DNA from: Eledone cirrhosa
Taxonomy: Eukaryota
Assembly (NCBI GenBank): GCA_964016885.1
Contig: OZ024752.1
Coordinates: 40,920,001 to 40,984,000, forward strand
Reading direction: 5' to 3'
DNA length: 64,000 bases
Part shown: one piece after another, positions 54,296-55,357 of the stretch
Layout of the letters: each line of letters opens with the position of its first letter
Numbering within the stretch: position 1 is the first letter of the stretch
The notes under the pieces: model-generated
Database searches by the model: none
The model's input: only the letters and a program-made list of their open reading frames with translations
What the model was told of the DNA's origin: nothing
Position numbers and translations under genes: made by a program

Positions 54296-54556
54296 TGTGT
54301 GAGATAGATAGGGAGATAGATAGATAGGTAGATAGATAGATAGGTTTATATATATAGTTATACTTGGGGAGGGTCATATTTGTGTAATATTGCCAGAATT
54401 AATAACAGAACACACTCACTGTTTGGTTGGTTTTCGCTTTTCGCTTCTGTGTCTTTTATATCTGCGATCTAACTTACTCGGTCCTCAATGTTGCCATTGA
54501 CTGACTAACGGTCAAAAATACAGATACAATATAGACACAAACACATATATATAGTT

Positions 54557-54600
54557 TATCAAAGTTCTTTCGTTGCACATCTGCAACATCATCAGTGGTG
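54557..54600 (-). ncRNA. Hammerhead ribozyme with an extra nucleotide after A9
   Basis: Reverse complement: cacca CTGATGA t gttgca gatg tgcaac GAAA gaac TT tgata. Stem I is weak. Confidence 0.6.
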
Positions 54601-54864
54601 CTATTGTTTCCTCCCGTTACATTGTATTTTCTACGCCATCTTTATTTAGTCTGTTTATATATTTATTTATTTGTTTATTTTATTTTGTCTTCTTTGCGCA
54701 TGCGTTTGCGTGTGTGTATAGTGTTTTGTTTGATGTGTGTTCGTGATTGGGTGGCTGTGTATTGGTTAATGTATTCTATCTTTACTAGAGTGTAATTATA
54801 TGTGTTTGTTGATATTGTGCTTGTGTATGTATTTATCTATTTATTTATCTATCTATTTATTTAT

Positions 54865-55047
54865 TTATACTTCTCTTAGGTCAGTGTTGTTTGTTTGGGT
54901 GTTGTTGTTATTCCATTCAATTTTTCTGTTTAGCCTTGGCCTTCTAAGTTCTATTTCGCTGGCCTCTCTGATTTGCCTATCTGCTGGGTCATTTCTATGT
55001 TTAGATATTATTCTAATTTCTATGTTATCTATGTTACAGTCGCAGCA
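54865..55047 (-). pseudogene. GIY-YIG endonuclease C-terminal remnant (Penelope-like element ORF end)
   Basis: Hand translation CCDCNIDNIEIRIISKHRNDPADRQIREASEIELRRPRLNRKIEW...REV*. Has the R..REA..I....P.LNR motif of PLE GIY-YIG domains; not in the ORF track because it has no start codon. Confidence 0.75.
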
Positions 55048-55357
55048 TTGAGGACCGAATAAATTATATTACCGATATAAAAGACACAGAAGCCAAAAGC
55101 GAAAACCAACCAAACAGTGAGTGTGTTCTGTTATTAATTCTGGCAATATTACACAAATATGACCCTTTCCAAGTATAACAATATTTGTTTCGACACACGA
55201 TTTCATATCAAAAACCTTGCAAAACTATATATATATATATATTTCGTTTCTGAATTTGTTTAGCAAGATTCTTTATCTGAAAACGTGTGTTGAAACCGAT
55301 ATATGAAAGATGGCGTAGGACAGAACAAAGGAGAGGCACAAAAACAAAGAATCCCCA

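What the first reader, a model, noticed from the sequence alone, without database searches (positions are those of the whole stretch)
54357..55225. Unannotated GIY-YIG remnant links the HHR/fold-back islands to Penelope-like elements
Seen: minus-strand 54865-55047 reads ...NIDNIEIRIISKHRNDPADRQIREASEIELRRPRLNRKIEW...*, followed downstream by an HHR (54557-54600) and a terminal segment (54357-54494). That segment is repeated in inverted orientation exactly where the ORF breaks off (~55043), with gcagcattg/caatgttgc near-homology at the junction. Established: PLEs encode RT plus a C-terminal GIY-YIG domain, and truncated copies often carry inverted pLTRs. Inference: this copy identifies the autonomous parent class of the short islands.
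Basis: partly seen in the sequence, partly recalled or inferred. Interest (0 to 1): 0.75.

Follow-up and report, generated by a model that had tools for sequence, protein, structure and literature searches.

The report
Active Penelope-like lineage with enlarged polymerase
This stretch is a broken-off copy of a Penelope-type jumping gene that still has dozens of intact copies in this genome; its copying enzyme carries a telomerase-sized extra segment not found described for this group in the papers read, and its mirror-image insertions almost always pair one short end with one long end, which likely records copying from both sides of a DNA cut.

Summary
Confirmed and extended. 54352-55041 (-) is the 3' end of a Penelope-like element (PLE): 58 endonuclease codons, a minimal hammerhead, and the terminal repeat holding the element's start codon. 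55042-55227 is an inverted second arm with a 43-nt tail. The parent is a 4,133-bp unit with a 1,209-aa ORF; 81 of 150 scored copies have open frames of at least 1,200 aa. Its predicted fold matches telomerase RT and the I-TevI GIY-YIG domain. (1) RT motifs A and B lie about 128 aa apart (canonical PLEs about 60, human TERT about 115), in a deep lineage with named members in three phyla that fits none of the clade descriptions read; Naiad, Athena and Coprina references were missing from my tree. (2) In 76 of 77 resolved head-to-head insertions of three families, one end is short and the other tailed. The scan noted this pairing before, on retrozyme arrays of this genome. The window's islands come from at least four PLE families in two clades, so this copy names their class, not their parent. 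The 'junction near-homology' is only the end of the inverted repeat.

The parts
54352..55041 (-). Sense arm: 5'-truncated copy of PLE family A (unit positions 3454 to the next ATG+26), 'short' 3' end
   Evidence: 82% identical over 732 columns to the intact 4,133-bp unit; end class
54865..55041 (-). Last 58 codons and stop of the 1,209-aa ORF: last strand and helix of the GIY-YIG-fold domain with the conserved R, E and N; lacks the VVY/YIG motifs and both Zn sites, so not functional
   Evidence: 93% aa identity to the intact ORF; hhalign to A2 probability 96.5 (A2 contains the parent, so not independent); model residues 602-699 align to I-TevI 1ln0_A; conservation
54600..54864 (-). 3' UTR, A/C-rich and low complexity
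54558..54599 (-). Minimal type-I hammerhead motif in the pLTR; cleavage untested
   Evidence: two helix II pairs differ on both sides between families A and B (read)
54352..54499 (-). Terminal pLTR segment; holds the ATG of the next unit's ORF at 54377-54375
   Evidence: tandem junction in L059
55042..55227 (+). Inverted arm, ATG-119 to ATG+69, joined head-to-head to the truncation point; ATG at 55159
55185..55227 (+). 43-nt tail (codons 9-23 of the ORF), present on this arm only
54344..54351 (.). (TA)n target flank at the short end
   Evidence: sequence
55228..55243 (.). (TA)n target flank at the tailed end, shared with the neighbouring family B insertion
   Evidence: sequence
55240..55558 (+). 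Neighbour: two-armed insertion of sister family B (inverted 63-nt tail arm 55240-55302; 252-nt arm 55307-55558 with hammerhead core 55362-55390)
55862..56342 (.). Neighbour: fold-back island, two pLTR arms of Hydra-type family C, one tailed and one short

Best explanation
The locus is a dead, 5'-truncated, two-armed insertion of a Penelope-like retrotransposon that has dozens of intact copies in this genome, and it was likely made by two reverse transcriptions primed from both strands of a cut in a (TA)n tract. Shown: the parent unit (4,133 bp, tandem and head-to-head arrays), its 1,209-aa ORF with RT, a short CX4CxxC-x7-C linker and a CCHH GIY-YIG-type domain, the start codon inside the terminal repeat, discrete 3' ends at ATG+26 and ATG+69 to +84, (TA)n flanks, and the pairing of one short with one tailed end. 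Predicted: the telomerase-like and I-TevI-like folds. Inferred, by analogy with the anole element PAc (PMC11167929): the protein, probably a dimer, cuts both strands in (TA)n; one DNA end primes at the upstream internal start site of the RNA and the other at the downstream one; both cDNAs stop at variable points and are joined head-to-head, often at 2-4 nt of microhomology. When both stop early the result is a short hammerhead fold-back island. The RT carries about 70 extra residues between motifs A and B, where telomerase has its insertion-in-fingers domain; I infer that it helps hold RNA or primer, untested. Confidence: PLE identity about 0.97; two-ended priming about 0.65; undescribed clade-level lineage about 0.55.
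For: Parent: 21,334 first-look candidates, the best 150 scored all match; N-terminal query, 81 of 150 scored with open frames of at least 1,200 aa (hand count); 24 long frames from 20 loci at 99.4% median aa identity. Fold: pLDDT 91.4 with a 98-row alignment; top five Foldseek hits are telomerases; VIA Z 16.0 to TERT, and residues 602-699 to I-TevI Z 10.5, rmsd 2.1, 88 of 92 aligned. End pairing: first set 25 of 25 resolved; all loci A 40 of 41, B 19 of 19, C 17 of 17, from 119 junctions of which 42 had an unresolved end; 16 of 17 in family A loci outside the first set. Both flanks (TA)3 in 64 of 77. The tailed arm is the shorter in 42 of 76, sometimes 50-100 nt against kilobases, so the short-ended arm cannot always be a fold-back copy of the tailed cDNA, and the tail cannot be copied from the short-ended arm. 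Microhomology of at least 2 nt in 24 of 32 blunt or overlapping family A junctions against 14.5% in random joins; 27 further junctions had inserted or mismatched bases. PAc cuts and extends both strands and starts at two internal sites that bound the tail. A-B spacing 126-139 in 33 of 34 homologues used (one unmeasured) and 117-141 in all 46 measurable of 146 distant hits, against 58-60 in this genome's Neptune-, Nematis- and Hydra-like RTs. With the insert left out, the long-insert RTs form one group, 100/99, stem 1.64.
Against: No biochemistry and no RNA evidence. Only 36 of 72 family A loci show a detectable inversion, so the second arm is often absent or too short to see. The tail at one end only is already reported in words. 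PAc showed no difference in start site between strands in vitro, so the strict pairing is not explained by that study. The window's own two arms differ in a block of about six changes that matches two different haplotypes, whereas about 16 of the 18 other readable loci have matching arms: a single RNA with one pair of sites does not fit this copy unless the RNA was a mixed tandem or later conversion occurred. One locus (L025) has two short ends. The tree lacks Naiad, Chlamys, Athena, Coprina, TERT and named reference elements; its clade labels come from motifs; the long-insert set was gathered by similarity to the query; a sister position to Nematis-like RTs is not rejected (p-AU 0.17). A hammerhead core was seen downstream of only 7 of 20 metagenome relatives (0 of 20 antisense), 3 of 20 with the stricter descriptor.
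Confidence: 0.7

Rival explanations
1. Same element, but the lineage is a divergent branch of (or sister to) Nematis that gained an RT insertion; no new clade.
For: The linker CX4CxxC-x7-C has the Nematis spacing of Craig et al. Fig. S2, not the Neptune one (23-24 aa); CCHH present; p-AU 0.17 for grouping with Nematis-like RTs.
Against: Nematis references in Fig. S1 have no insert. Nematis-like rows are a group of their own (95/93) and join Neptune- and Poseidon-like rows (91/82). Grouping with the two rows that bear the Nematis endonuclease signature is weakly rejected (p-AU 0.045). DKS replaces DKG and motif B is GGxIG-type.
Confidence: 0.3
2. The inverted arm arises from one cDNA by self-priming or fold-back (PMC3846280 proposes self-priming on an antisense template), and the tail or the short end is set by endonuclease resolution of the intermediate (PMC8557442).
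For: It would also give two unlike ends; arms usually share a haplotype; many junctions are near-symmetric, as in the 189-nt palindrome at 55964-56342.
Against: Arm lengths are not nested in one direction (42 of 76). Most family A junctions join distant unit positions. PAc data place the tail's boundaries at RT start sites. The window's arms carry different haplotypes.
Confidence: 0.2
3. The two arms are separate insertions that met in one (TA)n tract, or an assembly fold-back.
For: The tract is an insertion hot spot with families A, B and C side by side; this copy's arms differ in haplotype.
Against: No TA or other spacer at the junction; independent insertions would give like ends about half the time, against 1 of 77; arms 91% identical, which an assembly fold-back would not give.
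Confidence: 0.05
4. The short islands are a non-autonomous retrozyme-like family, mobilised in trans and unrelated to a coding parent.
For: Animal non-LTR retrozymes are proposed to derive from PLE pLTRs (10.64898/2026.07.22.740005); most island copies hold no ORF.
Against: All four island types tested continue into a PLE ORF in some copies, with graded 5' truncation.
Confidence: 0.05

Closest known systems
Canonical C-terminal EN+ Penelope-like elements (Penelope/Poseidon, Neptune, Nematis; PMC8557442: abstract, introduction, sections 11, 12, 15, passages, supplement parts 1, 53, 54 read)
   Same: Single RT plus C-terminal GIY-YIG ORF, CCHH motif, partial tandems, inverted 5' arm, tail, hammerhead in the pLTR, (TA)n targets.
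   Different: About 70 extra residues between RT motifs A and B, which that paper says canonical PLEs lack; DKS instead of DKG; own long branch.
Nematis clade (Fig. S1 and S2 of PMC8557442)
   Same: Short CX2-5CxxC linker with 7 residues to the next Cys; CCHH; C-terminal EN.
   Different: Nematis references have an A-B spacing near 60; tree separates the two, sister position open.
Naiad and Chlamys (PMC8557442)
   Same: Insertion at the IFD position; (TA)n targets (Naiad); tandem and inverted arrays.
   Different: Their EN is N-terminal, they have a CxC motif and DKA, lack canonical hammerheads, and their insert is 20-40 aa.
PAc, Poseidon of Anolis carolinensis (PMC11167929, parts 1-2 of 4 read)
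   Same: Start codon in the pLTR; tail inside the ORF start; two discrete 3' ends; AT-rich targets.
   Different: No pairing rule between the two ends is reported in the parts read; there the ORF begins within the hammerhead, here about 190 nt downstream of it.
Adineta vaga Penelope elements (PMC3846280, passages read)
   Same: Head-to-head arms, tail optionally on one arm, pLTR holding the first codons, Asn-rich ORF inserts, microhomology at 5' junctions.
   Different: Penelope/Poseidon group; Pen3 and Pen5a have a short Cys-rich insert between RT motifs 3 and 4, unlike the long insert here.
Telomerase RT insertion-in-fingers domain
   Same: Same position and similar length (human TERT about 115 residues from A to B, counted by hand from Fig. 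S1); best structural neighbours of the RT are TERTs.
   Different: No sequence similarity found; structural homology of the insert itself not tested.

Membership tests
Penelope-like elements (EN+) | RT most similar to telomerase RT | tested here: met
   Predicted model: top Foldseek and VIA hits are TERTs; RVT_1 only E 5.5e-4, below cut-off
Penelope-like elements (EN+) | GIY-YIG endonuclease in the same ORF | tested here: met
   I-TevI match Z 10.5, rmsd 2.1; VVY-YIG, R, E, N conserved; Pfam PF01541 below cut-off or absent; CDD cd10442 not available
Penelope-like elements (EN+) | [quoted passage not shown] | tested here: met
   C610, C615, H653, H658 of the folded piece conserved in 89-96% of 98 rows
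Penelope-like elements (EN+) | Partial tandems giving pLTRs, direct or inverted, with optional tail | tested here: met
Penelope-like elements (EN+) | Hammerhead motif in the pLTR | tested here: met
   Motif in 143 family A copies read; layout as in PMC4209133; cleavage untested; seen in 7 of 20 metagenome relatives
Penelope/Poseidon | No Zn-finger linker between RT and EN | tested here: not met
   CX4CxxC linker conserved in 97-98% of rows
Neptune | Long CX2-5CxxC linker and RT grouping with Neptune | tested here: not met
   7 residues against 23-24; p-AU 0.029 for grouping with motif-defined Neptune-like RTs; Neptune is paraphyletic in the paper and no named reference was in the tree
Nematis | Reduced linker with CX2-5CxxC | tested here: met
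Nematis | No insertion between RT3(A) and RT4(B) | tested here: not met
   128 against about 60
Nematis | RT falls within the Nematis clade | tested here: inconclusive
   Separate group, sister position not rejected; references defined by motif only
Naiad / Chlamys | N-terminal endonuclease | tested here: not met
   EN is C-terminal in the intact ORFs
Naiad / Chlamys | RT grouping with Naiad or Chlamys; homology of the IFD | not testable with these tools
   No usable Naiad sequence obtained
Hydra | CxCX5C linker, no CCHH, RWK and DKT motifs | tested here: not met
   Family A has CCHH and DKS; families C and D do show Hydra-type features
Telomerase IFD | Structural homology of the insert with the TERT IFD | not tested

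The most novel reading that the evidence does not exclude
This is a ninth clade of Penelope-like elements, active in this genome and present in molluscs, echinoderms and cnidarians, that joins a C-terminal GIY-YIG endonuclease and a hammerhead with a conserved, telomerase-sized insertion in the RT fingers; and endonuclease-bearing PLEs of at least two clades integrate by asymmetric two-ended priming, one DNA end using each of the two internal start sites, which would explain inverted pLTRs, the one-sided tail and fold-back islands with one mechanism. Homology of the insert to the telomerase IFD is a further, less likely step (about 0.15).
Probability: 0.4. Interest if true: 0.72.

Novelty: new variant of a known kind. 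Interest (0 to 1): 0.52.

Why it matters
PLEs are the sister group of telomerase, and their integration is described as unresolved in the papers read. A young family with dozens of near-identical intact ORFs offers a natural substrate for the in vitro assay that exists for PAc. The 76-of-77 pairing of ends gives that assay a sharp prediction. If the long-insert lineage is a clade of its own, the statement that C-terminal-endonuclease PLEs lack an insertion in the fingers needs revising, and the group is under-annotated: Pfam misses its endonuclease and barely sees its RT. The copy in the window is itself ordinary debris.

Tried and rejected
Pfam scan of the peptide: nothing; of the parent endonuclease: nothing. 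Rfam at gathering score: nothing. Single-sequence fold: pLDDT 36, discarded. Profile and insert searches of PDB sequences: no TERT; a family not listed is not excluded. DNA search with island C: empty because the words are too common; a pattern search then worked. Naiad references: two patterns found nothing, 40 GIY-YIG loci held none, an endonuclease-region search gave two Neptune-like proteins, and a motif-B pattern gave only decayed Naiad-like pieces. ESM Atlas gave no answer. No RNA holder listed; contigs laid on the locus were uninformative. A dimer prediction of the N-terminal domain was not run (queue), so dimer formation is untested. The idea that tailed arms are generally shorter was not supported (42 of 76, p 0.42; very short arms 17 tailed against 7 short, p 0.06). 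A column-based test of arm haplotypes was largely an indel artefact and was replaced. In one search spacings near 94 came from a second false motif-A match inside the insert and were re-measured; two of 30 Nematis-like rows gave 108 and 138, probably false matches, not checked. RNA folds at the end sites showed nothing telling. Arkhipova 2006 (Syst Biol) is not held. Seven literature searches listed no description of this lineage or of a counted end-pairing rule; subscription journals, Repbase and Dfam were not searchable, the supplement of PMC8557442 was cut on storage and read in part, and supplements of the bioRxiv preprint are closed.

Full report
1. The observation. The minus strand reads the stated peptide with its stop at 54867-54865. 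A minimal type-I hammerhead lies at 54599-54558. My descriptor finds it there and in 0 of 5,000 resamples of the region; Rfam finds nothing at gathering score. Its layout (unpaired base before helix II, long helix II, short helix I, almost no helix III) is that of metazoan PLE motifs in PMC4209133 (parts 1-2 of 4 read). The inverted repeat is real: 148 nt, 91%.

2. The parent. The peptide finds 21,334 candidates in the own genome, and the best 150 scored all match. Long copies carry RT motifs, a CX4CxxC linker and a VVY-C-C-YIG domain with two His. A query from the N-terminus finds 81 of 150 scored hits in open frames of at least 1,200 aa (hand count). Twenty such loci show a 4,133-bp unit in tandem and head-to-head arrays, a 1,209-aa ORF from its first ATG, and 99.4% median identity among 24 long frames: the family is young and probably still active (inference). 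The start codon lies in the terminal segment, so the 'tail' is the first codons of the next ORF. The window holds unit positions 3454 to ATG+26 in sense and ATG-119 to ATG+69 inverted. The closest named protein is from Octopus vulgaris (66%), so the host is probably an octopus (inference).

3. Is it GIY-YIG? Pfam does not say so for the peptide or the parent, and only weakly for two of eight homologues (E 0.0032 and 0.099). A model from a 98-row alignment has pLDDT 91.4. Its RT is nearest to telomerases and residues 602-699 superpose on the I-TevI catalytic domain (Z 10.5, rmsd 2.1, 88 of 92). The window keeps only the last third of this domain and cannot encode a nuclease.

4. Clade. In PMC8557442 (abstract, introduction, sections 11, 12, 15, passages, supplement parts 1, 53, 54) canonical PLEs lack the insertion in fingers; Naiad and Chlamys have 20-40 extra residues; some Coprina have it sporadically. 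Counting by hand in its Fig. S1, motif A to motif B spans 58 residues in Penelope, 81 in Naiad-Amil and 115 in human TERT. Here it spans 128, and 126-139 in 33 of 34 homologues and 117-141 in all 46 measurable of 146 distant representatives. The insert has conserved positions (E, L, C, R, G, P, R, W at 88-99% of 98 rows). Named members come from Octopus, Holothuria and the jellyfish Sanderia; most others are from unnamed assemblies. The linker has the short Nematis spacing. In RT trees without the insert, these proteins form one group (100/99, stem 1.64) apart from Neptune-, Nematis-, Poseidon- and Hydra-like rows. A sister position to Nematis-like rows is not rejected (p 0.17); grouping with Neptune-like rows (p 0.029) or with the two most Nematis-like rows (p 0.045) is weakly rejected. 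Limits: labels come from motifs, Poseidon is one row, Naiad, Chlamys, Athena, Coprina and TERT are absent, long branches meet at Hydra, and the group was gathered by similarity. The trees used 36 and 27 long-insert rows chosen by hand from 266 hits. A 2026 preprint still lists eight clades (part 1 of 5 and passages read). Seven searches listed no description of this lineage; Arkhipova 2006, Repbase and Dfam could not be read.

5. The islands. The neighbour at 55240-55558 belongs to a sister family B with the same insert, about 60% identical in protein. The fold-back at 55862-56342 is the pLTR of a Hydra-type family C (2,206 exact matches of a 32-mer; tandem unit 3,747 bp). The fold-back at 47924-48167 is the pLTR of another Hydra-type family D (19,194 matches; some of 30 loci run into a Hydra-type ORF). 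So the class is right, but there are several parents. About ten other core-like matches were not traced.

6. How it inserts. 3' ends are discrete: ATG+26 against +69 to +84 in A, +26 against +85 in B, about 102 against 203 nt from the anchor in C. Of 72 family A loci, 36 show a head-to-head inversion, and all 25 with both ends resolved pair one short with one tailed end (the 60 newly fetched loci were the first hits with short open frames, a choice blind to end type). Over all loci then held, 119 junctions were found, 42 had an unresolved end, and 76 of the other 77 are unlike pairs (A 40 of 41, B 19 of 19, C 17 of 17). Both flanks are (TA)n in 64 of 77, which hides any target duplication. Arms are not nested in length, which argues against copying one cDNA from the other. 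Junctions are enriched for short microhomology. PAc cuts and extends both strands and starts at two internal sites that bound the tail (PMC11167929). The simplest reading is two RNA-templated primings, one at each DNA end, each from a different site, then joining of the two cDNAs (inference, about 0.65). Whether one RNA or two are used is open: arms mostly share a haplotype, but this copy's arms do not, which suggests the asymmetry lies in the protein complex or in the order of events. Earlier papers state that the tail is often at one end only and propose self-priming or endonuclease resolution instead. I found the pairing before looking at the scan's notes; they report the same two-armed pattern for retrozyme arrays of this genome and a short fold-back elsewhere. 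These are unchecked notes, not support. One gives ends 59 bases apart, the spacing I find in family B; I did not test that link.

7. Verdict. What is worth following is the parent: an apparently active family from a deep lineage with a telomerase-sized insertion in the RT fingers, and a near-strict rule for the two ends that an existing assay can test. PMC13282606 (passages read) reports recently active Penelope families in Octopus vulgaris without clade detail in those passages, so activity alone is not new. New variant of a known kind; interest 0.52.

Noticed in passing
window 58606-58915: A diverged relative of family A (about 80% identical) on the minus strand with a tailed end, faced by a tail-only inverted arm across a (TA)n run, tail to tail.
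   Followed up: partly
window 55596-55700 and 2405-2510, 5819-5924, 18131-18236, 21975-22080, 58370-58475: A repeat of about 106 nt in six copies (92% identical) ending in (TA)n, very deep in a public run; identity unknown.
   Followed up: no
window 37004-37376: Three hammerhead-like cores at a 178-nt period on the minus strand; possible small retrozyme array.
   Followed up: no
window 29195-29240: A canonical-looking hammerhead with a 6-bp helix II on the plus strand, of a family not traced.
   Followed up: no
window 2153-2766 and 17868-18494: Two near-identical clusters of family B, the 106-nt repeat and family C in the same order; probably a local duplication.
   Followed up: no
L059 1692-5318 (ORF residues about 247-408): A 160-residue Asn-rich block kept in frame in the intact ORFs; Asn-rich inserts are reported in Adineta vaga Penelope elements at other positions.
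   Followed up: no
G000:C6:30047173-30067007: Three minus-strand and three plus-strand units head-to-head, about 25 kb, five with full open frames.
   Followed up: partly
L059-L078, hammerhead region: The young subfamily has a changed sequence after the GAAA of the hammerhead in 45 of 45 copies read, which alters helix III and helix I; it may have a weakened or remodelled ribozyme.
   Followed up: partly
window 54455-54475 against 55058-55078: The two arms of this insertion carry different pLTR haplotypes, unlike most loci.
   Followed up: partly
L139-L168, L207-L240: The genome also holds several Neptune-like families, Nematis-like and Hydra-like families, and decayed Naiad-like pieces.
   Followed up: partly
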